This document shows, piece after piece, positions 7,438 through 54,289 of a stretch of 64,000 nucleotides of DNA. The position numbers and the translations under genes were made by a program. Source of the stretch: Naegleria gruberi (Eukaryota); NCBI GenBank assembly GCA_000004985.1, contig GG738871.1; one strand, written 5' to 3'. Under the pieces are notes generated by a model that searched no databases, was not told the origin of the DNA, and was given only the letters and a program-made list of their open reading frames with translations. The first letter of the stretch is position 1; the number at the start of each line of letters is the position of its first letter.

Positions 7438-8580
7438 ATGGCTCAAACTATTGGCGGGAAATCTGCAGCTGCTTTCACACAAACCTCCAGAACATCAAAA
7501 TTTAGTAAAGGAACAATTTCTTCATTGAGTTTTAAAATTCGATTGTGTTGTGGGGTTTTAGAACTTGACTGCATGCGATTACTGTCTCTAATTAGTTTAT
7601 TTATTAACATTTCAGCATTTATTATTGTTGCTGGTGTAACCATTGACATGTTTTCGATAACTAATCAATCCTATTCGAAAGTATTAATTGCGAGGGGAGA
7701 TGCTTTAAATTCAAATGAACTAATGATTGATATTGTAAGAGTTGGAGCATTATCCAGAAATAATTCAGAGATTGACAAGTGGTATTCGTATAGAGATCAG
7801 ACAATTGAGGCATTGAATCGATTTTTCAAATATGTTGATCCATCTGTCAATACTACAAATTTCAATTCTGGAAGTAGAAATGGACGAGACATGTATACGA
7901 TTCCATTGATGGAGGAAATTATTTCACACCTGAAAAATCAACAATACGAAAGTGCACTAACTTTGTATCAGGGATTTACTTATCAGAATTTAACTGCCAC
8001 CTGGTTTAAACAACAATCGGCTGTGTTTAATTTGGTAAAAACAGAAGGAAGAGGACAAGATGATTTAGTTTTGAATTCGTCTACTTCAAATTTGGTGGTG
8101 GTTAGTGTTTGTCTTGCAATTGTTATTCCAATTGTTGTTCTAATGACTTGTTTGAATATTCGAAGGGAATCAACCATATCCGAAACTCTTCATAATTCTA
8201 GAGCTATTCAATTATTGGATACAATGAATGATCCAATGTATTCTAAATTCTTCAAACAAGCATGTGTTTCAGAGAAAATGTTGGATTCGTACATGTTACT
8301 TTCTCAAATTCTGGAATTTAATCAAATTCAAGACGAAACTGAGCAGAGAAATAAGGCTCAGTATATTTATCAAACCTATCTTGCAACTACAAGAAGGGTT
8401 CCATTCAAGTTTGTAAGCAAAACACTAATTGCCAACATTTACAAGGATTTACAGGAATCATCATTGCCAGAAAAGGCAATTCGAGTCAGTGTGTTTAGAG
8501 AACTTGAGGCGTGCATTTGTGAGGAATTAATTCCGGTTCATAGGATGTTTATGAAGACAATTAAGGATACTGGTAAATAA
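7438..8580 (+). CDS. paralogous two-pass membrane sensor-RGS protein (TM1 - extracellular domain - TM2 - RGS domain)
   Basis: It has the same architecture as 5810..7141. Conserved blocks are LIARGDA, NQQYESALTLYQGFTYQNLTATW versus NNQFELAQSLFYSAEYQAALNDW, the TM2 helix, and (D/E)TM(N/K)DP immediately before the RGS domain (AQYIYQTYLATT..VPFKF...VSVFRELEACICEELIPVHRMFMKT). Confidence 0.6.
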   Translation: MAQTIGGKSAAAFTQTSRTSKFSKGTISSLSFKIRLCCGVLELDCMRLLSLISLFINISAFIIVAGVTIDMFSITNQSYSKVLIARGDALNSNELMIDIVRVGALSRNNSEIDKWYSYRDQTIEALNRFFKYVDPSVNTTNFNSGSRNGRDMYTIPLMEEIISHLKNQQYESALTLYQGFTYQNLTATWFKQQSAVFNLVKTEGRGQDDLVLNSSTSNLVVVSVCLAIVIPIVVLMTCLNIRRESTISETLHNSRAIQLLDTMNDPMYSKFFKQACVSEKMLDSYMLLSQILEFNQIQDETEQRNKAQYIYQTYLATTRRVPFKFVSKTLIANIYKDLQESSLPEKAIRVSVFRELEACICEELIPVHRMFMKTIKDTGK

Positions 8581-8657
8581 TCTTGTAAAAACTCCATTCA
8601 CTCGTTTTGGTTTTATTACTTTCTTTTATGGTATTATACTTTTTTGGTAACTAGTTA

Positions 8658-10469: not shown

Positions 10470-10483
10470 AATGGCGCCAAAAC
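10470..10483. promoter_or_regulatory. E2F-like half-palindrome ATGGCGCCAAAA ~30 bp upstream of the EF-hand gene start
   Basis: The GGCGCCAAA core is read directly. It belongs to the recurring motif family listed in the findings. Confidence 0.35.
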
Positions 10484-13982: not shown

Positions 13983-14097
13983 TTTTATTTTTGTTGGTTT
14001 GCAATTTTCGTTGTTGAGCGGTAAATTTTGGCGGCAAACAATAGTTTCCTCAATCAACACCACTTTCTTTGGTAATGAGGATGATCTTTTGGTGTTG

Positions 14098-22275: not shown

Positions 22276-22761
22276 TTTTTTGTGCTGAGTTTTTTTGTAC
22301 GCTGTTAAAAAGTCGAAAAGCTAACGGTACTTGAAAGTTACGATTTTTAGGCGGCAAACTTCCTTTTACTGGTATTGTTACCAATAACACTCTTGGTGTT
22401 GTGGTAATCCTCCTCAATGATTGTTATGGAGTTTGAGACGTTGAGGTTTCTTCTTGCTGAATTGTGCTTGATGATTCTTTTAAAAAGAAAATGGAAGATT
22501 GGTATCCTATCGTTATCATTCTATGAGGATTCAAATTCAGTGTTGATGAAGTGATTGAGTTTTTTTTTGAGGGAAGATTTAAGATTTGTTTCTTGGCTGT
22601 AGATACAATAGTAGAGACAAACGGTCCTTGTAACAAGATAAATCGAGTCATTAGTGAATATCACACCTAAACTACTGCTGCAAGTGTTACAGCTAAACCA
22701 AATACTCTGTATGACTCAGGTCATGCGTTGGCAAAAACTATTTTTCATCATTAAATAAAAA

Positions 22762-26441: not shown

Positions 26442-27808
<1,367 letters not shown>

Positions 27809-27840
27809 TTTTTTTAATATTTTATTCAATTTTTAATTTA

Positions 27841-27855
27841 TTTTTGGCGCCAAAC
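27841..27855. promoter_or_regulatory. palindromic E2F-type site TTTTTGGCGCCAAAC centred in the 70-bp bidirectional RBBP4/CWC27 promoter
   Basis: The motif is read directly. It lies 24 bp upstream of the CWC27 ATG (27879) and 33 bp upstream of the RBBP4 ATG (27808, minus strand). Confidence 0.5.
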
Positions 27856-27878
27856 AATTTAATTTTTCCACTTAAAAA

Positions 27879-29054
27879 ATGAGTCAAGTTTATTCTTCCC
27901 TCCCAAAAACTCAAGGTAAGCAAATCATCATTTATTTTGATTCGGAATGAAAATAATATTAAATTGAAATTATTATAGGAAAGGTTATTGTAGTCACTGA
28001 TTGTGGTGATATTGAAATTGAATTATTTGCTAGAGAAACACCAAAGGCTTGTAAAAATTTTGTACAGTTATGTCTTGAGGATTTTTATAATGGATTACAT
28101 TTTCATAGAATTGTTTCGGAGCAATTTGTTCAAACTGGTGATCCAACTAATAATGGTGATGTTGGCGAATCTATTTATGAATTGGATGAATCAGGAAAAG
28201 GAAAAGCTTTTGAAGCAGAATATCATTCAAGATTGAAATTTTCTCAAAGAGGATTAGTAGCTTGTGCCTCTCAGAATAACATGTCTGATTCTAGGTTTTT
28301 TATAACACTTAATAGATTGGATGCTTTAAATTTTAAACATACAATATTTGGACAAATAGTAGGAAATACTATTTACAATGTTCTGAAAATTGCTGAATTG
28401 GAAGTTGACGATAATGACAGGCCTGTTTATCCTCCAAAAATAATAAGAACTGAGGTAATTGTAAATCCATTTCCTGATATTGTACCAAGGAAAAAAACAG
28501 TATCAGATTCGAATATCAAAAAGAGAAAAAAGAAAGAAAATAAGAATGTTCTCTCATTTTCTGATGAGATTGAGGAAAACAGTGAAGAAATTAAACCAAG
28601 AAAGAAGGATAAAAAAGAGCATACAGATTCACAACAACATAAAGACGAGAAAAATAAGGTCATTGAACCTGTTGAAATTCCAAAAGACAGCAATCCACCA
28701 AAAATAGAGTCCAAAGAAATTCCAATAGACAAAAATTCAAGAGAAACAAATAGGAAAGAAGAAACTGATCCTACCACCTCCACAGAAAATGAAAACACAT
28801 TTGATGATGTTGCAAGCAGATTTTCCTCTTTAAGAAAGCAAAAGGAAGAACAAATCAAAACTGATTCTGAAAATAAGACGAAACAAGATGCCAAACAATA
28901 TTTAAGTAATCAACTCCAAAAGTACAAAAAGAAGTCATCTAAAGAGGACAGAGAAGCCAAAGCTTTAGAAAAGTTTGAAAGTTTCTCTAAATTGTTAAAA
29001 TCCACTAACTCTGAATCATGGAAGAAACATGAGTTGAATTATAAAAAAGAATAG
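27879..29054 (+). CDS. cwc27: CWC27-type cyclophilin (spliceosome-associated PPIase-like) with K/E-rich tail; exons 27879..27915 and 27980..29054
   Basis: GKVIVVTDCGDIEIELFARETPKACKNFVQLCLEDFY...HRIV..F..Q.GDPT..G..GESIY aligns with the CWC27 N-terminal cyclophilin domain. Exon 1 encodes MSQVYSSLPKTQ. A 64-nt intron has GTAAGC...ttatag, in phase 1. Confidence 0.85.
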
Positions 29055-29062
29055 GATTGTCT

Positions 29063-30095
29063 TTATTTCAAAGTTTTTTTCCGATTTTTGGAAGTTGGAG
29101 ACCTATATCTATCCCTTTCGGTTGTTGGCCTGGAGTTTGATTCATTCCCCATTCTTTTAATGGATGAAATTAAGGAAGTATTGGATTTGATTAATGATGA
29201 ACGAGCCTTTGATTCGAATTGGCTATGATGTATCTGTGCTGTATTTTTAAGATTGCTATATCTTAGTGAGACTTGCTCAACCTCTCGATTTCTTTGTTGA
29301 ATTGTTTCACTTCTTTCTCTTCTTATTTTAATATCGAAACTATCAAGTTCTTGTTGTTGCTTTTTAAGTAAATGACTTTTCTTTTTTTCGAATGATGAGC
29401 TGTATTTAAGCATGAGCTTTCTCATCTCTTCTTCTTGCAGCTTTTCAGCCTTCTTTTTTACCTATTTATAATTATTTAAGGTTTTTTGCTCGGAATGATG
29501 ATGAACTACTTACAGATATTGCTTCGAAATAAAATTCTTGTCTTGCTAGAGTTTCCTCCATCATTTTCAAGGTAATTAAATCTCTCGTCTTTGGATTGTA
29601 TTTACGTTCTATTTCATCAAAGAATTTTTGTTCAAAATCCTCTAATTCTTTAGCATGCTTTTCAGCAAGTCTTTGTTTTGTATCGTCAAAGGATTGTTCC
29701 AGACCATTGATCTTTTCTTCCCATCGATCTTTTACTTCTCTTACTTCTTGTTCAAATGCTGAATCTATTTCTTCTCTTTCCTTTAATTGTATTCGCTTAA
29801 TATTATCTATATGTCTCTTCTCATTTTGAAATTTTAATAATAACATTGCTTTCTTTCCTATTTCGCATTGTTCATATTCACCTCTAGCAAAACACATCCT
29901 ATGATATTCTTTTAAAATTCTGATAGCCATCTCGTAAGTCATCTCTTGCGGTAGAGGTTCATGACTAAACGTTAGACTAATAATACCTTTTGCTTCCTCT
30001 TCCACCATCTCGAGTCCTTCATCAAATTTATCAATTGATGATGCAACCAAGCTCCCCGAGAGCTTATTACTACGAAGTGAACTCGAAAAAGACAT
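29063..30095 (-). CDS. coiled-coil protein, hypothetical; exons 29514..30095 and 29063..29461
   Basis: A 52-nt intron has donor TCT|GTAAGT and acceptor aaatag|. The frames join to give ...YFEAIS|VKKKAEKLQEEEMRKLM... The sequence is heptad-rich. Confidence 0.5.
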
Positions 30096-30133: not shown

Positions 30134-30147
30134 TTTTGGCGCCAAAA
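30134..30147. promoter_or_regulatory. palindromic E2F-type site TTTTGGCGCCAAAA ~40 bp upstream of the coiled-coil gene start (30095, minus)
   Basis: The sequence is a perfect 12-bp palindrome TTTGGCGCCAAA, read directly. Confidence 0.45.
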
Positions 30148-30404: not shown

Positions 30405-32510
30405 TTATTTTTGTAAATTCTTAATTTCAGCCTCAGTCAACTCTAATTTTTCAAGGAATTGTTGTTGTTGAGAATTTAAGAGTGTTTCAGTACCGAAAAT
30501 TTGCAAAGCTACTGATATAAACCATGATTGAACAGCCATTATAAACAATCTAAACTCAAAATAGAGTTGACTTCTCCAGAATTTGAATTTTTGAGACCAT
30601 GTGTTCAAATCTTGGTAATTTTCAACAGATACTCCTTTGGCAGCACATCTAGCCATAACAGAAAATCTATTCACCTTAGCGCCAAGCTCTCTATTTAAAG
30701 ATCTAAGAATGTTATCGGTTCTTGAGATGAGCAACATTTCTTTTGGCATATTTCTGTAAATGTCCATAAATTCAGCCCTTCTAGACTCAAAGAGCTTACT
30801 GAATTTTTCAAAATCTTCTTCAGTAATTTGCTGTTCAAATGCTGCACTCAAGTCTCCATTTTGATCCAGACCTTGCAACATAATCATTGAGGTATATAGT
30901 CTGTAATCTTTGATGCCAATGGATTTACAATAATCATCCATGCCCTTTTTATCGTTTAAAACTATGCTGACCCAGAATTTAGCATAGTTAATTCTGAAAT
31001 GGTCATCCAAATCTTTGTATAAACCATGGTCTAAGATGACGATTTGTGGTTCTGATGGATTATTTGGGTTTTGCTTTACCATAACATTACTTTGATGTGC
31101 ATCTGCATGCATGTGTCCGTGAATAAACAGTTGCTCTGCAAACGCAGAAATGATTCTAGCTGCGACATCACCTTCATCAAATCCCATAGCTCTAATTCTC
31201 TTTATGTCATTTGAGTTGCATGCATTATCAATGAATTCCATTGTTAAAACTCTTGAGCTAGTGTAATCATCATAGATTTTTGGTATATAGACATCTGGTC
31301 TTGAAGTACCAAATCTTTGAGCTGCCATCTTGGCATTTTCGGCTTCATGTAAGAAATCAAGCTCTGAATTAAGACTGCTCTTGATTTCATCACTAAATTG
31401 TTGATTAACTTCAAGTAATTCATCAATGCTCTTGGAATCTTCTTGCATGTAATATAATCTTATGCTTAATTTAGTTGCAGCATCTCTAGTGTACATATCA
31501 CCAGCAAAAAAGAATCTCACATAGTGATATTGAACCTTTACAGCTACAGACTGACCTTCTTTTGTTCTAGCTCTATGTACTTGAGCTATTGACCCACTGG
31601 CAATTGGTGTTGGATCAAAATATTCAAATAATTCCTCAACTGTTTTTCCAAAATCTTGATAAACAATCTTCTTTACTTCCTCAAAAGAAATTGTTGGAGC
31701 TCTATCTCTCATAACTGAAAGTGTTTCAATATATTCATCTGGAAGGAATCCTGAAAGTGAAGCAATATGTTGTCCAAGTTTAACATATATACCCTTGTTT
31801 TCCGAGCATAAACGTAGCAATCTCTTAGCTGACTTGACATGCAACTCCTTCTTTTTAGCAATAAATTCAGTTGATTTTTTGTCTGGTTTCTCTTGAAACC
31901 AATAATTTGGGTTAAAAGAACTAGTATTCAGAAGGACTAAGTATTCAACTCCAATAATTAAAATTGTTGACATTGTCTTTACATATCTGTCAATTCCTTC
32001 AAATAATTGAATAATTGGTGTTAGTGCATCTAAAAGAAATGGATTATAGAGTTTACTGTATGGATTTTCAATGTCGGATGCATGAAACAGCCATATAGAA
32101 AATTTCATTGCAGCATAAGAAAGTGCACTAATTGTTATTGCTCCAAGTTGAAATAAGCACAAGTATTTTAATATTTTGAGAATCCTTTTAAATAGAGAGG
32201 CTGTTTCCTCCTGTTCATTATTAGTATTTCCTTGTTGATTTGTAAATGTAGAATATTTGTTAAATTGATGATTTTCCTTTTGGTAATTTAACAAAATAGA
32301 GGATGATCCTACTTGTTTGTTAAAATCCAATTTACTTTTTTCCACCACTTGTCCAGTAAGATGATTCCTAATATTGCTAATATGAAATGATCGTCTATTT
32401 GATAAATTTAAATTATTCCGAGTGAGTATTGGTGTAGTAGTAGCAATACTACTAGTCATAACCAGAGGCTTGCCTCTTTTCAATGACTTTAAAAGAATAG
32501 TCATCATCAC
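30405..32510 (-). CDS. ABC1/UbiB-family atypical kinase (ADCK-like) with N-terminal membrane extension
   Basis: ASGSIAQVHRA...VAVKVQ matches the ABC1 domain. Also present are LDFLHEAENA, a DHG/HADAH catalytic region and N-terminal hydrophobic helices. The ORF is 701 aa and uninterrupted. Confidence 0.75.
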   Translation of the reverse strand: MMMTILLKSLKRGKPLVMTSSIATTTPILTRNNLNLSNRRSFHISNIRNHLTGQVVEKSKLDFNKQVGSSSILLNYQKENHQFNKYSTFTNQQGNTNNEQEETASLFKRILKILKYLCLFQLGAITISALSYAAMKFSIWLFHASDIENPYSKLYNPFLLDALTPIIQLFEGIDRYVKTMSTILIIGVEYLVLLNTSSFNPNYWFQEKPDKKSTEFIAKKKELHVKSAKRLLRLCSENKGIYVKLGQHIASLSGFLPDEYIETLSVMRDRAPTISFEEVKKIVYQDFGKTVEELFEYFDPTPIASGSIAQVHRARTKEGQSVAVKVQYHYVRFFFAGDMYTRDAATKLSIRLYYMQEDSKSIDELLEVNQQFSDEIKSSLNSELDFLHEAENAKMAAQRFGTSRPDVYIPKIYDDYTSSRVLTMEFIDNACNSNDIKRIRAMGFDEGDVAARIISAFAEQLFIHGHMHADAHQSNVMVKQNPNNPSEPQIVILDHGLYKDLDDHFRINYAKFWVSIVLNDKKGMDDYCKSIGIKDYRLYTSMIMLQGLDQNGDLSAAFEQQITEEDFEKFSKLFESRRAEFMDIYRNMPKEMLLISRTDNILRSLNRELGAKVNRFSVMARCAAKGVSVENYQDLNTWSQKFKFWRSQLYFEFRLFIMAVQSWFISVALQIFGTETLLNSQQQQFLEKLELTEAEIKNLQK

Positions 32511-32915
32511 AAGGAATAATAAAATTGGTTATTTTTTCTTGATTGAATCATCAACTGGAACATGTTTAACTTTGCAATTGGTATCATTGAAGTTTTTGAA
32601 TTGATCAATTCCACTGACAAAATAATGCAATAAATGATGAACAATACAATTCCGAGACTTTTGATTGTCAATTAATGAATTATTGATCATTAATTGACAG
32701 AAATGAGTTCAACTTCAATATTCTTAAGGAACTTATCTCACACTTAATATGAACGTGGTATGGTAGGTACCTAAGAAATATCCCATGAAAGTATTAAGGA
32801 ATTGAAAGAGATGAATGGGATGTAGGCACTAAGAAACAGCCATTGTTCCAAATACAACAAATCACAATGTGTCCGTGTTTCGTTATTAATTCACCACTTG
32901 TCTGAGAATAGTTGT

Positions 32916-32964
32916 AAAGGCGCCAAATCATCATTCACAACGAACAACTTCAAGGCGCCCAAAA
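32916..32964. promoter_or_regulatory. two E2F-like sites (AAAGGCGCCAAAT and AAGGCGCCCAAAA) 36 bp apart in the ADCK/Ser-rich-gene intergenic region
   Basis: Both are read directly, at 32916..32928 and 32952..32964. Confidence 0.35.
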
Positions 32965-33193
32965 TAATTTAATAATAGATAAAAAAATTGACCGAATTTG
33001 CTAGGAATTTACTTTGGTGTATCAGCCAATTTTGATAAAGATTAGGATTGCCGTTGTTATCACAAGAGGCTTCTTCATACGACTCACGAGTGTATTATTA
33101 ATAGAAGAGAGTAGACTACTTCACTTTCCAATCACTACTACAACTACCATTAGAAAAAAAAGAATACAATATTAACCCGAGTTAAATTACTCC

Positions 33194-34033
33194 ATGAAGA
33201 GATTGTTCATTACAACTTTCTTTCCTTCTTCAAATGTCCCATCATCAACAAGTTGTTCCAAAAGTTTACCATCATCATCTGCTGGTGGATTCGATTTCCT
33301 AGTACAAATTCTTAGAAACAAGGGAATTACTGATTCATTCTTACTGGAAATCAATGATGTTTCCACACTTCAAACATTAGCGCGAGACTATGGTTTACCA
33401 TTTGAACCATTACAAAAATACCATCAAAATCTGTTAAAAAACAAACCTTCCAACTTTGAACCAATTAGACATAATAGTAATCAAGCTAGCATTCTAACAT
33501 CTCCTTCCAGATCCTCATCATTACTTTCCTCTCTAATGAATGATAGTTATTTAGAAGAGGGTTTAGATGATGAGTCAACTTCCTATTCTTCTAGATCGGC
33601 CTCAATTTCTATTCCCTCCTCTCATTCTTCATCCGCCTCGATTGTTAAATCATTTGGTACAATCAGTTCCTCAATTGACGAACACTTCTTTGATGATGAT
33701 AAGGAAAAGATGAGAAAACCAATTACCACTAACGATAACCGCCCAACAACTCCTGTAAATTATGAAGCTGCCACCACATCTTGTTTATCACAAGAAGAAA
33801 AAGCGAAAAAAGAGTTGGAAAACATTCTAGATATTATTCACGACAATAATTATAACTTTCCAAAGTCTGCACTTGTTGCTGCATTCAGAAAGACAATTAA
33901 TGAAGGTCGTTTACCATCCAGTCCTGCTTTGAATCCAACCTCTCCTTCTTCCCCCAGTTATAAATCATTCATGTTCAATGATGTTGACTCTGATTCTGAA
34001 TATGATGATTCTCCAACCTCACCTGTATTATAA
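33194..34033 (+). CDS. Ser/Pro-rich hypothetical protein
   Basis: ORF of 279 aa, compositionally biased. I recognised no domain. Confidence 0.4.
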   Translation: MKRLFITTFFPSSNVPSSTSCSKSLPSSSAGGFDFLVQILRNKGITDSFLLEINDVSTLQTLARDYGLPFEPLQKYHQNLLKNKPSNFEPIRHNSNQASILTSPSRSSSLLSSLMNDSYLEEGLDDESTSYSSRSASISIPSSHSSSASIVKSFGTISSSIDEHFFDDDKEKMRKPITTNDNRPTTPVNYEAATTSCLSQEEKAKKELENILDIIHDNNYNFPKSALVAAFRKTINEGRLPSSPALNPTSPSSPSYKSFMFNDVDSDSEYDDSPTSPVL

Positions 34034-34263
34034 TAACAGATCACTTGTACAATATTCTTAACTATTCAATTTTGAAAAGAAAATGAATAAACCATTCGTT
34101 TTCAAATCCTAAACTCAATGACTCAATAAACCAACCTATTCGAAATAAACGAAAAAATTATTAACGATATGAATTTATTGTAAAAAAGAGTGCCTTAAAT
34201 GAGTGTTCTATTAGAGTTCAATGAAGTGAAAAGGAATTAGTGAACATTTCTCAACTTTAAAAA

Positions 34264-35319
34264 ATGTCAAAGTGGTCACTCTCTCAAACCATCACCAATG
34301 AACAAAAACTCTTTGCTTGCCCATCAAGTGTAGCCCTTTCCCATCGCTATAACAAACTTTTTGTTGCTACCTACGATGATATTGAATGTTGGATGAATAA
34401 TTGTTGCATTCAAGTATTTGATATTAAAAAGAATGGAGAAGAAACAACCTATTCCTATCAGGGAAGAATGCTCATTCCGGCCAATCCAAACAATTTACTT
34501 CTTGTCAGTGATGATAATGATGATTCTCTTCTTGTCAGTTGTAGTGCAAGAAATGCTTTGTTGAGATTTCAAGTTTCTGATTTATTGGAAAATGCTGTTG
34601 ATGATGATGACTATTCAACTCAACCTATTTGGAGAGTTGAAAGTAAATTTGGATATCCATGTGGAATGGCTGAGGCAACAGATGAAAATGGTGAGAAGAT
34701 TATTTTTGTTTGTGATGAAAGCAAGAATAGAATTGCAATTCTTTCATTTAAGGATGGAAAAATTATGAGATCACTATATGGACAACTCAATGAAATAGAA
34801 AGTTCAGAAGGTAAAGGTGATGATGAAACAGAAACTCCGCAGGAAGTTGAAAATTCGGAGCCAGTAGAAACTGCTGAAACTAGTTCAGAAGAAATTCCTC
34901 AAGCTGAAAACAAATCAGATGAAGAAGAGTTACCAACAAATAGATATTCATTCACAAAAATTGCATCTGTTTCAGTCAATCAGAATGGTAGCCAGTACAC
35001 TATTATTGTCTCAGGATATAGAACTAGTCACAAAATTATTTTGAATGGCTTAATGTCAACTGAGATTATTGAAACTGAATTGAAAAGTTGTGGAACTCAC
35101 TCAACTTTGGATAGCTTGAAAAATCAACAAATATTTGTTGGCTGTTCCAGTAATGAAGTTAGTATTCTTGATTTGGAAAGCGAACAAGTGGTATTTACTA
35201 CAAATGAATTTAATCTTGATCGTCCTGTTCACGTATTGTTAGATAATACTACCAGAACATTATTCATTGTAAATGATAATTGTCCAAGTATTACAATTTT
35301 AACAGAAAGAGTTGAATGA
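34264..35319 (+). CDS. hypothetical protein with NHL/beta-propeller-like repeats and acidic insert
   Basis: Repeated blocks resemble NHL blades (e.g. FGYPCGMAEATDENGEKIIFVCDESKNRIAILSF). The ORF is 351 aa. Confidence 0.45.
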   Translation: MSKWSLSQTITNEQKLFACPSSVALSHRYNKLFVATYDDIECWMNNCCIQVFDIKKNGEETTYSYQGRMLIPANPNNLLLVSDDNDDSLLVSCSARNALLRFQVSDLLENAVDDDDYSTQPIWRVESKFGYPCGMAEATDENGEKIIFVCDESKNRIAILSFKDGKIMRSLYGQLNEIESSEGKGDDETETPQEVENSEPVETAETSSEEIPQAENKSDEEELPTNRYSFTKIASVSVNQNGSQYTIIVSGYRTSHKIILNGLMSTEIIETELKSCGTHSTLDSLKNQQIFVGCSSNEVSILDLESEQVVFTTNEFNLDRPVHVLLDNTTRTLFIVNDNCPSITILTERVE

Positions 35320-36778: not shown

Positions 36779-36941
36779 TTTGTTGTTTTTTTTATAAAGC
36801 TGATTGTTGCAACTTTCAACGTTCAACAACAACTAATTGGCATTGATTGACATTATGAATTGGTTCGATGTTGTTCATTCACACAAATATTCAATTCAAC
36901 TTGTTGAAAATTATCGAGCTGGTAAGTTGGATTCTCAAAGA

Positions 36942-36958
36942 GGCGCGAATTTTGGCGC
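36942..36958. promoter_or_regulatory. double E2F-like element GGCGCGAATTTTGGCGC ~165-180 bp upstream of the SOD gene start
   Basis: Read directly. The element contains TTCGCGCC in reverse and TTTGGCGC. Confidence 0.35.
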
Positions 36959-37680
36959 TCTCAATTTTTCACCAATTATTAGACCTGACATTTGGCAGAT
37001 TGATGCTTCCAAATCGGGTATGTGAGGTCAAGGAGGAAAATTGATACTGTTGTTTTGGATTTAATAGTGCATTAATAAGCCTACTAGTTTCTGGTAGTGA
37101 ACAGACAATCAAATATTTCACATTCAATAGTTAATATTTAACATTATTCGAAAGTGAAATGAGCTTTGAATTTCTAATAAAAATGATGGAATATGAATAA
37201 GAAACTCTAGTGATATGATTGTAATGATGTTGAAGAAACTAGAAGTGATGGTCTCATCAATTTTTTCTCAAATGGCAACAAAGAATTTCTAATAACATAT
37301 TCGAACGAAAGATTCTCATATTATTATTTATTTCCTATGTTGTATAAAAATTACAATCACACTAGATCTTTACAACACTTACAGTTTTTTTTTTACCATA
37401 CCTCCTCAATAGTTAGTCAACCAAATTCTAATAACTTACTTGAGGTCGTGCTATTTAATTTCCAATTAGAAAGTTGAGCAATAGAAAGGCGCACAATTAT
37501 ACATTTGATCCGACACCTCATTGCAGGGTGTAATTGTCCATTCTTTATTATCAACATGTTTTTGACATCCAACTTGAAAAAATTGTTGTCATATATTATC
37601 TATATTATTAGAAAGCAAAAAAGTCACTAAATTTGTTTTTGATATAGAGAATTGGTACCCTATAAAAGTGACATCTTTAA

Positions 37681-37821: not shown

Positions 37822-40800
37822 ATGTCTTTAAAAAAAAATATTCAGATATTGGTGGATCGTTTAGATTCAACACTCTCTGTGAATTCATCCTCCGATCATC
37901 ATCAAGATCTTAGTAATTATCCTCTTCATATTGAAGATCAATCAGAGGATAACAATAATATTGAACAAGAATTAATAACAGAGAGTCCAACATCTATTTC
38001 AAGACATCAACTCATGTTTAATAGTGGTGGTGCTAATAATAATCACAATCATAATCATAATGGTATGGATCATGATGATGAATTTGATGAAGATTCATTA
38101 TTATTATCCAACAATAATGGAAGTGTAAATAATTATCAAGATGACGACGTTGTGTTAAATTCCTATTTGAATGAAAGGACAATTGGTGATTTAACAAAGA
38201 AACCCTATATTCCATTAAAACAAGATAGAAAGAAAATGACTCGATTACAAAATATTTATTACATGTTTTTACAATACATGATGTTTACTTGGAAGGAAGT
38301 TTCAAAACGTAAAGTTTCATATTTGATTGGAACTGCGAGTTGTTTTGTTGTAGTTTGGATGATTATGGTTTCAGTTTCTGCACTTTCACAAGTTCCTTTG
38401 GTGTTTATTCGTTTGGCAGAGTTACAAGTTGGTGAATTTGATTTTAAATTGAAAACTGGCATTAATATGGCAGGTATTTCACTAAATTATACAAGAATTA
38501 ATTTACAAATTCAAAATGCTACAAGAGGTAATCCTGAAATGACTCAACAATTTTCATATCATTCACCTAGATTTACATTTAGTACAAGGGCATTTACAAA
38601 TTGTGAAAGTATAACACAAGATTTATCTATTTTTAAATATCAAGATTTTAAATGGATGTATAATTCAACAAGTAGTTCATGTGGTTTGAGAGAAAATCAA
38701 AAATCCATTCAATCATCCGATTATAATAATGGACAATATTGTGTTCCAATTGATTGTAAAAAAGTTGCTGAAAGATTATCACTTTATTTAATTGATACTG
38801 ATAAAGAACGTAGAATGCAATTCGGAAGAACTTATCCATATTCAAAATTGGAAAAGGGGAAGGCAATTATTGGTTCTGGTCTTGCTGAAACATTATCTGT
38901 TAAAAAAGGTGATACTATTCTATTGAATATTCAAACAATGAATAGCTTTACTGGACCATATCGTGATTCTCACATGATTGGTTATGTCTATCCAAAGGCA
39001 AAAGGATCATTGGAAAAATTAATACCAAAACAAATACAAGAGCTATTGGATAGTAATGAATTTCATGAATTTGAAAGAAAGAATATAAGATCACAAGCAA
39101 TTCTCAATGAAATACTTGAAGAGAAATATTCTGATTTATTCGATGAGGATCAAGCATTGAAAAATAGAAGACTTACATTCAATGGTGGTGCCACTTACAT
39201 TCCAGTAATTGTTGAAGATGTTGCCAATAATGCATATGGAAAATATCAATCAACGAATTTGGAAAATGCAATTATTATGGAATATGATTCATTACTTGCT
39301 CATGTTGCAGAGTTTTTGAATGAAGATCTCTTTTCCAAATCAGAAAAGTCAACTCTTTCACAATTAGATTTGTATGATTATGCCAGTGAAGTTTATGTTA
39401 ATTATCCACCAAATAGATTAACTGCCTATAATGAAAATGATTACAAAGTGATTAGAGAAAAGATTACAAAATTTGCTTCCACTTCAATGTATTTAATGGG
39501 TTTTAATCAACTTTCATCAAGTTTCCCAATATTGGAAATGATGGAAGTTACACAATTTTTTGCCCTCTTTGTTGGTTTAATTATTTCAATCATTTTAATT
39601 GTTTTGTGTTTACTTTCTGTTGTATTAATTTACAGTTTGTTAATGATTAATGTTGAAAATAGAAGATATGAAATGGGTTTATTGAGAATGATTGGTTTAA
39701 AGAGAAGAAATCTTGTTGAACTCATTCTAGTTCAAGCCATGTGGTATGGTATTCCAGCTTGGATTTTAGGGTTAATCATTGGTCAATTATCTTATTCTGT
39801 AGTTGCAATTTTGCTTAGTACTCAATTGGAAGCAAACGTTTCATATATTGTCTCTGGTGAAGCTTTTGCATTGGCAACATTCCTTGGCTTGACTGTTCCT
39901 GTTTTATCTGCCATTTTACCAATCAAGACAGCCCTCGGTCAAAATTTACACGATTCACTCGATACTCAAAGATCAGGAACAGCAGCTGTTAAATATTCAA
40001 TTGAAAGAGCTGAGGGAGAATCCATCTCATGGACATCTATTGTTATGGGTGTTGTTGGTATAATTTTTGGTTTTTCAGTTTATTATGTCATGCCACTCAG
40101 TATGCTTACATTTAATATTACAATTATGATGTACATGTTTATGGCTGTTATTTTGGCCATGTTATTGGGTTTAGTTTTATTGAGTTTGAATTTTGAAAAT
40201 ATTATTGAATTTATTGTAGTTTTATTTACCATTAGAATATTTGAAAAAGTATCAGTTATTGATCTAGTTGAAAAGAATCTAATTGCTCATCGTGAGAGAA
40301 ATAGAAAGACAACTCTAATGTTTTCATTGAGTTTGGGTTTTATTATATTTTCATCTGTTTTATTCAATACACAAATTACAGCATTCAAATATAATGTAAT
40401 GAGAGGTGCAGGAACAGAACTCATTGTTGGTACCAGTAGATTGAATGCATTTGCTCAGAATCCAAATATCATTGGAACTATACAGGAATTTGCTGATAAT
40501 AATCCTAATTGGTTTGTTGGATCCACTTATTGGACATTTGATTTAACAAGAGTTACATCACCAATTGATAATACTAAAATAAGAACTGATGGTGGTCTTG
40601 TTAATAATGATATTTATATTCGTGCCATTGCTCCAAACTTTTTTAATATTACAAATTCAAAGTTTTTAAGAATTGATGAAAGAATTCAACCTGAAAATAA
40701 GACAGTATTTACAAAATATAAGAGTAATTTAGATGAATATTTATATACTGTTGAAGGAAGTAGTCAATTAATATTAGGAACTTATTTTAAATCAAATTTA

Positions 40801-41592
40801 GGAGTTAATATCAAAGATACAGCTGTTCTTCAAATTACTGAATCAACTTCAAGAATGCCAAATTATAGATATGAATTATTCCAAGTTGGTGCTTTTTTGA
40901 GTGCATGTCCAGTAGCTCTCTATTCTGAATTTCCAAGATTTGGAACACAAAATTTACTTGTCAGTGTTCCAACCTATTTACGTCTCCTTGGAAAGAATTC
41001 AAATTATACAGCAACAAGTCTTCCAATTGATGCTGTCTTTTTAAAATTAACTGAAAATGCAAAGAATAATAAGGCTGAATTTAGAAAGTTGAGATCTACT
41101 CTCCAACGTGTCATTAGTCCATTCCCAGGACTATTCATTAGAGATATTAGTCAAGAATTAGATCCAGTTGAAATTGCAGTTTCAGTCATGAACTTTTTCT
41201 TCCTCTTCACAGCAGCAGTTGCCCTCGTCATTTGTTTCTTTAGTTTAATTTCTAGCATGTATAGTAATATTAATTCACAAGCAAAGGAAATTGGAATTTT
41301 AAGAGCTATTGGAATGAAGAAATTTGCAATTATTAGAGTTTACATTTATGAGGCATTTGTTTTGATATCAGCTGCTGCAGTTTCTGGTGTGGCCATTGGT
41401 TTGGCTATTGGACAAACTATGGCTATGCAAAATACCTTAATTACAGAATTACCAATTGATTTTGTATTTCCTTATCAAATTGTTGCACTTGTACTTGGAA
41501 GTGCAATTATTTTTAGTTTCTTTTCTTCCTTCTTCCCTATTTATTCACTTGTTAATATGCCAATTGTTAGCGTTTTGAAAAAACTTAATTAA
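37822..41592 (+). CDS. bacterial-type duplicated FtsX/MacB-like ABC-transporter permease (two [TM - large extracytoplasmic domain - 3-4 TM FtsX] units), with eukaryote-style low-complexity N-terminal extension; intronless
   Basis: FtsX-like modules end each half: ...LLRMIGLKRRNLVELILVQAMWYGIPAWILGLIIGQ... and ...GILRAIGMKKFAIIRVYIYEAFVLISAAAVSGVAIGLAIGQ... Each is preceded by a ~350-aa hydrophilic loop. The N-terminal 170 aa are N/H/D-rich. The ORF is 1256 aa. Confidence 0.7.
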   Translation: MSLKKNIQILVDRLDSTLSVNSSSDHHQDLSNYPLHIEDQSEDNNNIEQELITESPTSISRHQLMFNSGGANNNHNHNHNGMDHDDEFDEDSLLLSNNNGSVNNYQDDDVVLNSYLNERTIGDLTKKPYIPLKQDRKKMTRLQNIYYMFLQYMMFTWKEVSKRKVSYLIGTASCFVVVWMIMVSVSALSQVPLVFIRLAELQVGEFDFKLKTGINMAGISLNYTRINLQIQNATRGNPEMTQQFSYHSPRFTFSTRAFTNCESITQDLSIFKYQDFKWMYNSTSSSCGLRENQKSIQSSDYNNGQYCVPIDCKKVAERLSLYLIDTDKERRMQFGRTYPYSKLEKGKAIIGSGLAETLSVKKGDTILLNIQTMNSFTGPYRDSHMIGYVYPKAKGSLEKLIPKQIQELLDSNEFHEFERKNIRSQAILNEILEEKYSDLFDEDQALKNRRLTFNGGATYIPVIVEDVANNAYGKYQSTNLENAIIMEYDSLLAHVAEFLNEDLFSKSEKSTLSQLDLYDYASEVYVNYPPNRLTAYNENDYKVIREKITKFASTSMYLMGFNQLSSSFPILEMMEVTQFFALFVGLIISIILIVLCLLSVVLIYSLLMINVENRRYEMGLLRMIGLKRRNLVELILVQAMWYGIPAWILGLIIGQLSYSVVAILLSTQLEANVSYIVSGEAFALATFLGLTVPVLSAILPIKTALGQNLHDSLDTQRSGTAAVKYSIERAEGESISWTSIVMGVVGIIFGFSVYYVMPLSMLTFNITIMMYMFMAVILAMLLGLVLLSLNFENIIEFIVVLFTIRIFEKVSVIDLVEKNLIAHRERNRKTTLMFSLSLGFIIFSSVLFNTQITAFKYNVMRGAGTELIVGTSRLNAFAQNPNIIGTIQEFADNNPNWFVGSTYWTFDLTRVTSPIDNTKIRTDGGLVNNDIYIRAIAPNFFNITNSKFLRIDERIQPENKTVFTKYKSNLDEYLYTVEGSSQLILGTYFKSNLGVNIKDTAVLQITESTSRMPNYRYELFQVGAFLSACPVALYSEFPRFGTQNLLVSVPTYLRLLGKNSNYTATSLPIDAVFLKLTENAKNNKAEFRKLRSTLQRVISPFPGLFIRDISQELDPVEIAVSVMNFFFLFTAAVALVICFFSLISSMYSNINSQAKEIGILRAIGMKKFAIIRVYIYEAFVLISAAAVSGVAIGLAIGQTMAMQNTLITELPIDFVFPYQIVALVLGSAIIFSFFSSFFPIYSLVNMPIVSVLKKLN

Positions 41593-45675: not shown

Positions 45676-45730
45676 TTTGGCGCAACTTTTAAAAATCGAG
45701 TAAAAACTAGCCTTGAAAAGGCGCAAATTT
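45676..45730. promoter_or_regulatory. two E2F-like sites (TTTGGCGCAA at 45676..45685; AAAGGCGCAAATTT at 45717..45730) 90-140 bp upstream of the BRCT/HMG gene start
   Basis: Read directly. Confidence 0.35.
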
Positions 45731-51400: not shown

Positions 51401-51523
51401 TATTATGCAGTTACCAAATTATCGTTTGATGAATGGAGAGTGAGAAATGAAAATACATTCTTTAACAGTATAACACAAGAGATTGAAATTACAACAGAAA
51501 AGAAACGAAGTAAATTCTTTTAA
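48419..51523 (+). CDS. MORN-repeat protein with C-terminal PD-(D/E)xK nuclease-like domain and Cys/His cluster; long N/S-rich N-terminus
   Basis: MORN repeats (YKGEWKKGKKEGFGI, YEGEWKENEMNGFGI, YYGNFKKGKRNGFGI, YRGEWLNDVRNGKGE) are present. The nuclease-like core is SKLESRWAKFFECCGIEYQYE...YTPDFYLP...WIEIKP, giving E ... PD ... E-x-K. A CHHC-like cluster follows (WCQCHHCGKISLEYRCKPKCC). Confidence 0.6.
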   Translation: MINSKPKSLLQIAKDRKNKLSSQSSQSSQSSQTSNDNNNTNSSSSLTILNHSSNTSSNNNVNTTNNIGNNSTTTSTNKTTSTCKLIIKPKSSIRLYSETVDLSFEYSSDKESDNDDIQIIHTPVNKKLSTPSSSLTSLSSTTSTPSSLLKSLSLLPNNNNNMTTLKTTTKNEISNNNNNLSSSLSTSTNLIVETYSSLLEDLTQQDDDINSNSLNINSNSLNIKEPLIKKRKQFKIPSFYMTDEEIKHDISLSKTIIPILNIQDKFSIHFTKPFWTIYKDGNEILLLDFRKPIFTNLLFLKLIYYFNFNKTKIIEKSKFIHSIKDLIILLKPYSTLLVNNENLEQLKKEIEIILNEDLKNNFIENENVKYVNNFQYLILEYLNTNIHKFKNTKKSRNLRKLRMCEELLKKEFNSKFIKSFEKSENSFYSDFNFNLYDFMSIYFNKEKFEYLNLNEIDFNNSIKEFHKILNELIISTIYYNKGQYIGDIIATNLLKKSIKNNTTIYGSEYQNSNNDEKQHQYYINSDNSDNDDSDDSDSDEEEEEEENEIILDSHIPHGFGSWKFIEENNEIFYKGEWKKGKKEGFGILQTFEILYEGEWKENEMNGFGIFKILNGYHKGSIYYGNFKKGKRNGFGIQFYKYEGNNEILKDDLNEFNEFYRGEWLNDVRNGKGEFKSKYEWKLGEWKKHEFKNGILLIKECLEIQDSIITNCIHSQIEIEKYSKKTKKSQIPSTILPFIFSLDNLDKLTVVDAIIAYGNQSKSPKRTIYNGYCFRSKLESRWAKFFECCGIEYQYECKTFILKDGTSYTPDFYLPFLNFWIEIKPNYPSEEERVKAQLLSFVLQKQTSNNNQHNELTEFEKKYERYLQSNPRIFILYGDVSAPFIKKFQSGGMAIEFFKTDQQENSIQNRTNKRITPPRSGNTTSTTSNPIRESVLFNTTEPLGWCQCHHCGKISLEYRCKPKCCTNKTADNSTASTSLVDSVVTSELGPTLSNAYYAVTKLSFDEWRVRNENTFFNSITQEIEITTEKKRSKFF

Positions 51524-54265: not shown

Positions 54266-54277
54266 TTTTTTTTAAAA

Positions 54278-54289
54278 TTGGCGCCAAAA
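54278..54289. promoter_or_regulatory. palindromic E2F-type site TTGGCGCCAAAA 13 bp upstream of the WD40 gene ATG (54265, minus)
   Basis: Read directly. Confidence 0.45.

What the first reader, a model, noticed from the sequence alone, without database searches (positions are those of the whole stretch)
27809..27878. Recurrent palindromic E2F-type motif TTTGGCGCCAAA immediately upstream of multiple start codons, including a 70-bp bidirectional RBBP4/CWC27 promoter
The GC-rich palindrome stands out against about 70-75% AT intergenic DNA. It recurs at 27841..27855 (between RBBP4 and CWC27), 30134..30147 (coiled-coil gene), 54278..54289 (WD40 coiled-coil gene), 10470..10483 (EF-hand gene), 32916..32964 (two copies), 36942..36958 (double copy, SOD) and 45676..45730 (two copies, BRCT/HMG gene). 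All copies lie 10-180 bp upstream of an ATG. TTTSSCGC is the canonical E2F/DP site, and RBBP4 (RbAp48) is a classic E2F/Rb-pathway gene. A BRCT/HMG chromatin protein, a NEDD1-like WD40 protein and a centrin-like EF-hand protein are plausible cell-cycle targets. This suggests a TSS-proximal E2F regulon that can be read from the sequence alone.
Basis: partly seen in the sequence, partly recalled or inferred. Interest (0 to 1): 0.55.

Follow-up and report, generated by a model that had tools for sequence, protein, structure and literature searches.

The report
E2F binding sites in Naegleria promoters
The recurring GC-rich palindrome is real: it is the textbook binding site of the cell-cycle transcription factor E2F, it sits just upstream of about a quarter of the genes in this Naegleria gruberi segment, and it is conserved in related amoebae, which makes it a well-supported but expected example of a very old regulatory code.

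Summary
The window is Naegleria gruberi NEG-M, shown by exact protein matches. The E2F consensus TTTSSCGC occurs 12 times at 10 loci, against 0.57 expected. Eight of the 10 loci lie in the 8.4% of the window that is intergenic and within 200 bp upstream of a predicted ATG. Only one hit lies in 52.6 kb of coding DNA. The exact 12-mer TTTGGCGCCAAA, which is the human E2F1 SELEX/JASPAR consensus, occurs twice. One copy sits in the middle of the 70-bp RBBP4/CWC27 divergent spacer.

N. gruberi encodes E2F, DP, a two-domain DEL (E2F7/8-type) protein and RB. Its E2F recognition helix is identical to human E2F4 in the E2F4-DP2-DNA crystal structure. The sites are conserved upstream of RBBP4 and of a coiled-coil gene in N. 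lovaniensis and N. fowleri. The DEL gene carries an invariant TTTGGCGC plus a distal CCCGC-core site (TTCCCGCC/TTTCCCGCC in two of them) in four heteroloboseans.

Verdict: these are very probably genuine E2F-family sites. Binding and cell-cycle regulation were not tested. The labels "centrin-like" and "NEDD1-like" are not supported. This is a new member of a known kind, of moderate interest.

The parts
27843..27854 (.). Perfect palindromic E2F site TTTGGCGCCAAA at the centre of the RBBP4/CWC27 divergent spacer. Its centre lies 40 bp from the RBBP4 ATG and 31 bp from the CWC27 ATG.
   Evidence: An orthologous site lies 11 bp upstream of RBBP4 in N. lovaniensis (TTGCGCCAAA). TTTGGCGG-type sites occur in N. 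fowleri and Willaertia.
27809..27878 (.). 70-bp bidirectional spacer between the start codons of RBBP4 (minus strand) and CWC27 (plus strand).
   Evidence: Gene models. RBBP4 model is identical to XP_002676671.1. CWC27 matches human CWC27 at E=3.9e-62.
26442..27808 (-). RBBP4/RbAp48 gene (NAEGRDRAFT_68293), 3 exons, 420 aa.
27879..29054 (+). CWC27-type spliceosomal cyclophilin gene, 2 exons, 370 aa.
30135..30146 (.). Second perfect TTTGGCGCCAAA, 45 bp upstream of the ATG (30095) of a 326-aa coiled-coil gene.
   Evidence: Conserved as GCGCCAAAA 22-28 bp upstream of the ortholog's ATG in N. lovaniensis and as ATGGCGCCAAAAA 27 bp upstream in N. fowleri.
29063..30095 (-). Coiled-coil protein gene of unknown function, downstream of the 30135 site.
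54277..54288 (.). ATTGGCGCCAAA, 17 bp upstream of the ATG (54265) of an 838-aa gene with an N-terminal WD40 region and a C-terminal coiled coil.
   Evidence: WD40 matches are generic only.
10470..10481 (.). AATGGCGCCAAA, 36 bp upstream of the ATG (10440) of a calmodulin-like EF-hand gene (NAEGRDRAFT_68285).
14027..14038 (.).
22347..22358 (.). It lies 77 bp upstream of the ATG (22275) of an ELO fatty-acid elongase gene, in the ELO/AP4E divergent spacer.
   Evidence: A GGCGG[GC] core is kept in this spacer in N. lovaniensis, N. fowleri and Willaertia.
32916..32962 (.). AAAGGCGCCAAA plus a degenerate AAGGCGCCCAAAA, 35 bp apart, in the 690-bp spacer between an ABC1-kinase gene (minus strand) and a gene of unknown function (plus strand). 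They lie 237-453 bp from the predicted starts.
36942..36958 (.). GGCGCGAATTTTGGCGC, two adjacent half-sites, 172 bp upstream of the ATG (36778) of a secreted tandem Cu/Zn-SOD gene, in the 1-kb SOD/FtsX-like divergent spacer.
   Evidence: A pair of GCGC sites is kept in the orthologous spacer of N. lovaniensis and N. fowleri.
45676..45730 (.). TTTGGCGC (45676-45683) plus a degenerate AAAGGCGCAAATTTT (45718-45730), 94 and 137 bp upstream of the ATG (45587) of an 812-aa BRCT-HMG-BRCT gene with microcephalin-like BRCT domains.
7454..7461 (-). TTTCCCGC inside the coding region of an RGS-domain gene, 19 nt after its ATG (7438). Function is doubtful and it may be chance.

Best explanation
These are cis-regulatory binding sites for the E2F family of winged-helix transcription factors of Naegleria gruberi. 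The candidate binders are the E2F-DP heterodimer and/or the two-domain DEL (E2F7/8-type) protein.

Proposed mechanism:
- The RRXYD recognition helices of the two DNA-binding domains contact the GCGC core, and the T/A runs flank it.
- A fully palindromic TTTGGCGCCAAA is two overlapping inverted half-sites, so it can be read in either orientation. That suits a 70-bp spacer that must drive two divergent genes.
- The sites sit 17-170 bp upstream of start codons in a genome with very short 5' leaders, so they are probably at or next to transcription start sites.
- By analogy with animals, plants and Dictyostelium, RB-bound E2F/DP would repress these promoters in non-proliferating cells, and CDK phosphorylation of RB would release them.
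- DEL, whose own promoter carries two conserved sites, would provide negative feedback.

Shown here: sequence identity to the E2F optimum, strong enrichment, confinement to the promoter zone, conservation across species, the cognate factors in the same genome with an unchanged recognition helix, and sites at an E2F7/8-type gene.

Inferred: actual binding, the direction of regulation, RB dependence, and cell-cycle or proliferation-linked expression.
For: Sequence and enrichment:
- The 12-mer equals the human E2F1 SELEX/JASPAR consensus. The half-sites fit TTTSSCGC/GCGSSAAA.
- 12 hits against 0.57 expected in the window. 11 against 0.2 expected within intergenic DNA.
- 8 of 10 loci lie in the 8.4% of the window within 200 bp upstream of a start codon, and only 1 hit lies in 52.6 kb of coding DNA.
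- GCGCCAAA is the top non-poly-A upstream k-mer.
- 9 of 36 gene models carry a site within 200 bp upstream.

Trans factors:
- The window is N. gruberi.
- The species has E2F, DP, DEL and RB, with the expected Pfam domains.
- Its E2F helix [24 protein letters not shown] is identical to E2F4 in PDB 1CF7.
- RRXYD contacts the GCGC core (Medina 2016 citing Zheng 1999).

Conservation:
- The only two TTTSSCGC hits in 21 kb of syntenic N. lovaniensis DNA lie upstream of the RBBP4 and coiled-coil orthologs.
- All three GCGC tetramers in 21 kb of N. fowleri DNA fall in spacers orthologous to motif-bearing ones.

Canonical target:
- DEL promoters of an N. gruberi-like strain, N. lovaniensis, N. fowleri and a fourth heterolobosean all carry an invariant TTTGGCGC 45-90 bp upstream of the ATG, plus a distal CCCGC-core site (TTCCCGCC in the N. 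gruberi-like strain, TTTCCCGCC in N. lovaniensis).
- In human cells, E2F7 binds TTCCCGCC and occupies its own promoter and that of E2F8 (PMC3333892).
Against: - There are no binding or expression data for Naegleria. I could not reach the published differentiation data sets.
- I could not inspect canonical replication genes (MCM, PCNA, RNR), because the N. gruberi assembly is not indexed in the tools.
- Several motif-bearing genes (ELO, secreted SOD, calmodulin-like, RING) are not obvious cell-cycle genes. A quarter of promoters is a large share for a strict S-phase regulon.
- The sites at 32916-32962 are far from any predicted start. In N. fowleri the SOD/FtsX pair is also far from any predicted start.
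- CpG is depleted in coding DNA (observed/expected 0.31, against 0.71 in intergenic DNA). This explains part of the raw GCGC bias toward intergenic DNA. It does not explain the 55-fold excess within intergenic DNA or the T/A flanks.
Confidence: 0.85

Rival explanations
1. The element is a promoter motif read by a different, unidentified Naegleria DNA-binding protein, or it is a general core-promoter or initiator-like element. Its resemblance to the E2F site would then be coincidental.
For: - Nothing here demonstrates which protein binds.
- The motif sits very close to start codons, as a core element would.
- It occurs at genes with no evident cell-cycle role, such as ELO, SOD and a calmodulin-like gene.
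Against: - It is a twelve-base identity to the E2F1 optimum, in a genome whose E2F recognition helix is unchanged.
- Only about 25% of promoters carry it, which is too few for a general core element.
- Both archetypal E2F variants (TTTGGCGC and TTCCCGCC) are conserved at the E2F7/8-type gene.
Confidence: 0.08
2. The sites are non-functional. They would be residual CpG-containing sequence that survives in unmethylated intergenic DNA while gene bodies lose CpG, so GC-rich words pile up near promoters by default.
For: - CpG observed/expected is 0.31 in coding DNA and 0.71 in intergenic DNA.
- GCGC occurs only 13 times in 64 kb, 11 of them intergenic.
Against: - Within intergenic DNA the consensus is still about 55-fold over a dinucleotide-aware null (11 against 0.2).
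- Only 13 of 136 intergenic CpGs lie in the sites, so intergenic CpG is not generally in this context.
- The T-run and A-run flanks and the palindrome are not explained.
- The sites are kept at orthologous positions while surrounding spacer sequence diverges.
Confidence: 0.03
3. The sites are E2F-family sites, but the regulon is not a cell-cycle (G1/S) programme. It would be a broader growth-versus-quiescence or differentiation switch (amoeba versus flagellate or cyst), possibly run mainly by the atypical DEL repressor.
For: - About a quarter of promoters carry a site, including metabolic and signalling genes.
- The N. gruberi E2F is E2F4/5-like: its best solved matches are E2F4 and E2F5.
- The perfect palindromes suit a two-domain DEL protein.
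Against: - There are no expression data either way.
- RBBP4, a microcephalin-like BRCT protein and DEL itself fit a proliferation or S-phase set.
- This rival is a variant of the main explanation rather than an alternative to it.
Confidence: 0.25

Closest known systems
Animal E2F sites (consensus TTTSSCGC; the human E2F1 HT-SELEX/JASPAR motif TTTGGCGCCAAA; overlapping inverted sites such as the DHFR-type TTTCGCGCCAAA, the last recalled from my own knowledge)
   Same: - Identical sequence, down to the full 12-mer.
- GCGC core with T/A runs.
- Located close to the start of the gene.
- Used in TATA-less and bidirectional promoters.
- Cognate E2F, DP and RB are present, with the same RRXYD recognition helix.
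   Different: - The organism is a heterolobosean amoeboflagellate (Discoba), very distant from animals.
- The spacers are far shorter (70 bp between two ATGs).
- There is one E2F, one DP, one DEL and one RB rather than families.
- Binding and regulation are untested.
E2F7/E2F8 (animals) and DEL (plants) negative-feedback loop
   Same: - The Naegleria DEL gene has two E2F_TDP domains.
- Its promoter carries a proximal TTTGGCGC and a distal TTCCCGCC-type site.
- Human E2F7 binds TTCCCGCC and occupies its own promoter and that of E2F8 (PMC3333892).
   Different: Only promoter sequence is known for Naegleria. Whether DEL represses, and whether it is induced by E2F/DP, is inferred.
Dictyostelium RblA/E2F regulon
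   Same: It is a protist with an RB ortholog that represses S-phase and mitotic genes, and consensus E2F elements are noted in a target (PMC3386910).
   Different: - Dictyostelium has genetic and expression evidence (an rblA null). Naegleria has none.
- The two belong to different supergroups (Amoebozoa and Discoba).
Fungal SBF/MBF sites (SCB CGCGAAA, MCB ACGCGT)
   Same: These are G1/S promoter elements whose sequence overlaps the E2F site (Medina 2016).
   Different: - They are bound by KilA-N-derived factors that are absent outside fungi.
- The Naegleria sites have G at the position E2F requires (GGCGC).
- The genome has true E2F/DP.

Membership tests
E2F/DP-family binding site | Sequence fits the consensus TTTSSCGC (GCGSSAAA); the best sites fit the palindromic optimum TTTGGCGCCAAA. 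| tested here: met
There are 12 consensus hits at 10 loci, two of them the exact 12-mer. The consensus is quoted from PMC3333892, PMC4862756 and PMC5449588.
E2F/DP-family binding site | More frequent than chance, and concentrated close to gene starts rather than in coding or distal DNA. | tested here: met
   12 against 0.57 expected. 11 against 0.2 within intergenic DNA. 8 of 10 loci lie in the 8.4% of the window within 200 bp upstream of an ATG. Transcription start sites themselves are unknown.
E2F/DP-family binding site | Cognate factors (E2F, DP, and optionally E2F7/8-type and RB) are encoded in the same genome, with the RRXYD DNA-recognition motif intact. | tested here: met
   The window is N. 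gruberi. Pfam finds E2F_TDP, CC-MB and DP domains. The recognition helix is identical to E2F4 in 1CF7.
E2F/DP-family binding site | Conserved at orthologous promoters in related species (phylogenetic footprint). | tested here: met
   RBBP4 was checked in N. gruberi, N. lovaniensis, N. fowleri and Willaertia. The coiled-coil gene was checked in three Naegleria species. The DEL promoter was checked in four heteroloboseans, with TTTGGCGC invariant.
E2F/DP-family binding site | Present at genes that are E2F targets in other eukaryotes. | tested here: inconclusive
   Met for the E2F7/8-type DEL gene. Plausible for RBBP4 and a microcephalin-like gene. Replication genes (MCM, PCNA, RNR, CDC6) could not be fetched. 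Other motif genes (ELO, SOD, calmodulin-like) are not known targets.
E2F/DP-family binding site | Physically bound by E2F/DP or E2F7/8-type proteins. | not testable with these tools
   This needs EMSA, DAP-seq or ChIP with the Naegleria proteins.
E2F/DP-family binding site | Confers RB-dependent, cell-cycle- or proliferation-linked transcription. | not tested
   The published Naegleria differentiation expression data are not held in the library. No paper linking E2F to Naegleria promoters was found.

The most novel reading that the evidence does not exclude
The complete RB-E2F/DP-DEL circuit was already in place in the last common ancestor of Discoba and the other eukaryotes. That includes its cis code (identical to the human E2F1 optimum) and the two-site architecture of the DEL promoter (a distal TTCCCGCC-type site plus a proximal TTTGGCGC). 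In Naegleria the circuit controls an unusually broad set of genes, about a quarter of promoters, and acts as the master switch between proliferating amoebae and non-dividing flagellates or cysts. It might also feed the burst of de novo basal-body assembly, as E2F4/5 do in animal multiciliated cells.
Probability: 0.25. Interest if true: 0.6.

Novelty: new member of a known kind. Interest (0 to 1): 0.38.

Why it matters
E2F, DP and RB proteins have been catalogued across eukaryotes, but outside animals, plants and a few protists their DNA targets are rarely documented. I found no paper that describes E2F sites in Naegleria or any other heterolobosean.

Three findings argue that the cis-regulatory code of the G1/S network, and not only its proteins, goes back to the last eukaryotic common ancestor:
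- The site in this deep-branching lineage is base-for-base the human optimum.
- It is promoter-proximal and conserved across species.
- It is present at the E2F7/8-type gene.

Practically, it gives Naegleria workers, including those studying the pathogen N. fowleri, a sequence-readable handle on proliferation-linked genes. It also provides a ready-made compact bidirectional promoter (70 bp) for transgene design.

Tried and rejected
- **Chimeric query failed.** I concatenated E2F, DP, DEL and RB into one query to fetch all four gene families with one capped search. The tool seems to keep only hits of about 0.55-1.7 times the query length. No Naegleria protein came back and one search was lost.
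- **N. gruberi assembly not reachable.** Looking up N. gruberi genes directly showed that the NCBI N. gruberi assembly is not indexed for contig retrieval. I therefore could not run a genome-wide scan or inspect MCM, PCNA or RNR promoters. I used an ENA metagenome contig of an N. gruberi-like strain and the N. lovaniensis and N. fowleri assemblies instead.
- **Expression data not held.** Fritz-Laylin & Cande 2010 and Kennard 2025 are not in the library.
- **Gene-finder versions.** My first two versions fused neighbouring genes across short spacers. A version with an intergenic state and the AAAAAATG start context gave usable models. Eight models were confirmed exactly against NCBI proteins, and others through ortholog alignments.
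- **Hidden RNA gene rejected.** I checked whether the sites at 36942 or elsewhere mark an unannotated RNA gene. There are no Rfam or tRNA hits in the window.
- **Repeat or transposon rejected.** The flanks of the copies share nothing beyond A/T richness.
- **Gene labels rejected.** 'Centrin-like' and 'NEDD1-like' are not supported.
- **Redundant locus.** L005 turned out to be N. fowleri again (99.96% identical to L004) and added nothing.
Full report
**Organism and gene content**

The window is eukaryotic, about 31% G+C, gene-dense and has short introns. Six intronless ORFs and two spliced models that I predicted are identical, residue for residue, to NCBI proteins of Naegleria gruberi NEG-M on one 417,575-bp scaffold. 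Examples are XP_002676667.1, XP_002676671.1 (RBBP4, NAEGRDRAFT_68293) and XP_002676666.1 (the EF-hand protein, NAEGRDRAFT_68285).

I wrote a small Viterbi gene-finder with a codon-usage score, GT-AG introns, an intergenic state and the A-rich start context AAAAAATG. It gives 37 models, which I count as 36 genes after merging two pieces of a Sec1 gene. The window then splits into 52.6 kb coding, 1.7 kb intron and 9.7 kb intergenic DNA. Of the intergenic DNA, 5356 bp (8.4% of the window) lie within 200 bp upstream of a predicted start codon.

**The observation**

The sites are:

| Coordinates | Sequence | Note |
|---|---|---|
| 27843-27854 | TTTGGCGCCAAA | exact 12-mer |
| 30135-30146 | TTTGGCGCCAAA | exact 12-mer |
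| 54277-54288 | ATTGGCGCCAAA | 1 mismatch |
| 10470-10481 | AATGGCGCCAAA | 2 mismatches |
| 32916-32927 | AAAGGCGCCAAA | one good half-site |
| 36942-36958 | GGCGCGAATTTTGGCGC | one good half-site plus GCGCGAAT |
| 45676-45683 | TTTGGCGC | half-site |
| 32952-32962 | AAGGCGCCCAAAA | degenerate; does not fit the consensus |
| 45718-45730 | AAAGGCGCAAATTTT | degenerate; does not fit the consensus |
| 7454-7461 | TTTCCCGC (minus strand) | missed; 19 nt inside a coding region |

The exact 12-mer is expected 0.00 times in shuffles of the window.

Distances from site centre to predicted start codons:

| Gene | Distance (bp) |
|---|---|
| WD40/coiled-coil | 17 |
| CWC27 / RBBP4 | 31 / 40 |
| Calmodulin-like | 36 |
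| Coiled-coil | 45 |
| RING | 50 |
| ELO | 77 |
| BRCT/HMG | 94 and 137 |
| SOD | 172 |

The pair at 32916-32962 is 237-453 bp from either neighbouring start.

**Is it more than chance?**

- TTTSSCGC occurs 12 times, against 0.57 expected from dinucleotide-preserving shuffles of the window.
- CpG is strongly depleted in coding DNA (observed/expected 0.31) and less so between genes (0.71). I therefore also used a null restricted to intergenic DNA. A first-order Markov model of the 9.66 kb of intergenic sequence gives 0.2 hits on average and never more than 3 in 3000 simulations. The observed count is 11.
- Ten of the 12 hits, or 8 of 10 loci, fall in the 8.4% of the window that is upstream-proximal, and only one falls in coding DNA. 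My arithmetic from those counts gives a binomial P of about 1e-7.
- In an unbiased k-mer comparison of the upstream zones against the whole window, the only strong signal besides poly-A (the start context) is GCGCCAAA/CGCCAAA, with P about 2e-8.
- Nine of 36 genes carry a consensus site within 200 bp upstream.

**What the motif is**

TTTGGCGCCAAA is the consensus of human E2F1 in HT-SELEX and JASPAR (PMC5449588 and PMC11580471). The half-sites fit the classical TTTSSCGC/GCGSSAAA consensus (PMC3333892 and PMC4862756).

N. gruberi, the very organism of the window, encodes the cognate proteins. They are listed in the supplement of Medina et al. 2016 and present in NCBI.

- **E2F:** E2F_TDP plus CC-MB domains (Pfam).
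- **DP:** E2F_TDP plus DP domains (Pfam).
- **DEL/E2F7-8-type:** two E2F_TDP domains (Pfam).
- **RB:** listed in the same supplement.

The E2F DNA-binding domain aligns with human E2F4 in the E2F4-DP2-DNA crystal structure 1CF7. The stretch [24 protein letters not shown], which holds the RRXYD motif that contacts the GCGC core, is identical. The expected specificity of the Naegleria factor is thus the very sequence found.

**Conservation**

*Syntenic loci.* The syntenic loci of N. lovaniensis (L001) and N. fowleri (L004) share the gene order FtsX-like, SOD, coiled-coil, CWC27, RBBP4, AP4E, ELO.
- In 21 kb of N. lovaniensis DNA there are only two TTTSSCGC hits. One lies 11 bp upstream of the RBBP4 ATG, inside a 38-bp CWC27/RBBP4 spacer. 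The other lies 22-28 bp upstream of the true ATG of the coiled-coil ortholog, whose annotation there is 5'-truncated.
- In 21 kb of N. fowleri DNA there are only three GCGC tetramers. One is ATGGCGCCAAAAA, 27 bp upstream of the coiled-coil ortholog. The other two lie in the FtsX/SOD spacer, matching the pair at 36942-36958.

*RBBP4, ELO/AP4E and Acrasis.*
- Upstream of RBBP4, N. fowleri has AAACCGCCAAAAAAAATG (TTTGGCGG) and Willaertia magna has TTTCCGCCAAAA.
- The ELO/AP4E spacer keeps a GGCGG[GC] core in all four species. This is weaker evidence.
- Acrasis kona has only a one-mismatch TCTCCCGC about 50 bp upstream of RBBP4.

**A canonical target**

E2F7/E2F8 genes are direct E2F targets and bind their own promoters in human cells. 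E2F7 prefers TTCCCGCC (PMC3333892).

I retrieved the DEL locus from an N. gruberi-like metagenome contig (97% identical protein), from N. lovaniensis, from N. fowleri and from a fourth, more distant heterolobosean contig.
- All four have TTTGGCGC 45-90 bp upstream of the ATG.
- All four also have a distal CCCGC-core site: TTCCCGCC, TTTCCCGCC, CTCCCGCC and CTCCCGC.
- In the four-way alignment, TTTGGCGC is the longest invariant block.
- In the two 22.5-kb loci these are two of three hits (N. lovaniensis) and one of two hits (N. fowleri) to the relaxed consensus TTTSSCGS. In the 2.9-kb contig the two GCGC sites are the only ones.

This is what the E2F hypothesis predicts. It is not what an unrelated factor would be expected to give.

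**How it most likely works**

The E2F-DP heterodimer, or the single-chain two-domain DEL protein, binds the GCGC core through two RRXYD helices, with the T and A runs on either side. The perfect palindrome is two overlapping inverted half-sites and can be occupied in either orientation. That suits the 70-bp spacer that serves RBBP4 and CWC27.

Given the tiny spacers, the sites must lie at or within a few tens of bases of the transcription start sites. RB would hold these promoters off in non-dividing cells, and DEL would close a negative-feedback loop. Binding, the sign of regulation and cell-cycle timing are inferences from other eukaryotes. I could not test them.

**The target genes**

- RBBP4 is confirmed.
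- CWC27 is confirmed (E=3.9e-62 to human CWC27).
- The BRCT/HMG protein resembles microcephalin in both its N-terminal and C-terminal BRCT regions.
- The EF-hand protein is calmodulin-like, so 'centrin-like' is not supported.
- The WD40 protein gives only generic matches, so 'NEDD1-like' is not supported.
- The remaining motif genes are an ELO elongase, a secreted tandem Cu/Zn SOD, a RING-H2 protein and a coiled-coil protein of unknown function.

The set is therefore only partly "cell-cycle". With about 25% of promoters carrying a site, the regulon may be a broader proliferation programme.

**Rivals**

- *A different factor or a general core element.* This cannot be excluded without binding data. 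It is disfavoured by the 12-bp identity to the E2F optimum, the unchanged recognition helix, the 25% incidence and the DEL promoter.
- *Passive survival of CpG-rich words in intergenic DNA.* This explains part of the GCGC bias. It does not explain the 55-fold excess within intergenic DNA, the flanks or the conservation.

**Known or new**

E2F sites are textbook. I found no paper that connects E2F with Naegleria promoters or describes promoter motifs in this genus. A 2025 review states that the transcription factors for Naegleria's differentiation programme are unknown. The finding is a new member of a known kind. It extends the documented E2F cis code to Discoba and supports an ancestral RB-E2F-DEL circuit. 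It is not surprising to a specialist.

**Limits**

Capped tools prevented a genome-wide scan, and the N. gruberi assembly could not be retrieved. One protein search was wasted on a chimeric query. Expression data sets were not available.

Noticed in passing
whole window: CpG is strongly depleted in predicted coding DNA (observed/expected 0.31) but much less so in intergenic DNA (0.71). GCGC occurs only 13 times in 64 kb. This suggests gene-body cytosine methylation and deamination in N. gruberi.
   Followed up: partly
window, all predicted start codons; also L001, L002, L004: Nearly all start codons sit in an A-run context (AAAAAATG). The signal is strong enough to separate neighbouring genes in a simple gene-finder.
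   Followed up: partly
L003:3618-3650, L006:9780-9800, L007:9800-9820, L008:470-490 (alignment A2): In the DEL (E2F7/8-type) promoters of four heteroloboseans, an invariant CGTTACA block lies just 3' of the distal CCCGC-type E2F site. It may be a second factor's site (the reverse complement TGTAACG is Myb-like). Not tested.
   Followed up: no
window 36860-37060; L001:5600-5800; L004:4830-5040: The SOD/FtsX-like divergent spacer keeps a pair of GCGC sites in three Naegleria species, with AGAATCCAA next to them in two. In N. fowleri the pair is 460-810 bp from either ATG, which hints at an unannotated transcript or a distal element. There is no Rfam or tRNA hit.
   Followed up: partly
L001:7481-8614 (N. 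lovaniensis PYSW02000009.1): The public annotation of the coiled-coil gene (8058-8614, 170 aa) is 5'-truncated, and the true ATG is near 7481. The FtsX-like gene start in the same record also appears too far downstream.
   Followed up: partly
window 10567-12234 (-): An intronless 555-aa gene has pyridine-nucleotide-disulphide oxidoreductase plus rhodanese domains (bacterial CoA-disulfide-reductase-like architecture). It is a possible horizontal acquisition.
   Followed up: no
window 37822-41592 (+) and 48419-51523 (+): One gene encodes a 1256-aa FtsX-like permease-domain protein in a eukaryote. Another encodes a 1034-aa MORN-repeat protein with a weak Phage_endo_I match (E=2.7e-4).
   Followed up: no
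L007:21635-21650 (N. fowleri VFQX01000052.1): An E2F consensus overlaps an ATG in perfect start context (AAAAAAATGGCGCCAAAACGC), about 175 bp upstream of the annotated start of the next gene. It is either an unannotated first exon or a site within the 5' end of a gene. The site at window 7454 is a similar case.
   Followed up: partly
L002:9831-9920 (Willaertia magna): ARAGORN calls a 90-nt tRNA gene (tRNA-Pro, anticodon AGG) about 80 bp upstream of the RBBP4 start. It replaces the CWC27 neighbour seen in Naegleria.
   Followed up: partly
window 30405-35319 versus L001/L004: Three genes lie between the coiled-coil gene and SOD in N. gruberi: an ABC1 kinase, and the genes at 33194-34033 and 34264-35319. 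They are absent from that position in N. lovaniensis and N. fowleri, so this is a local rearrangement within otherwise conserved synteny.
   Followed up: no
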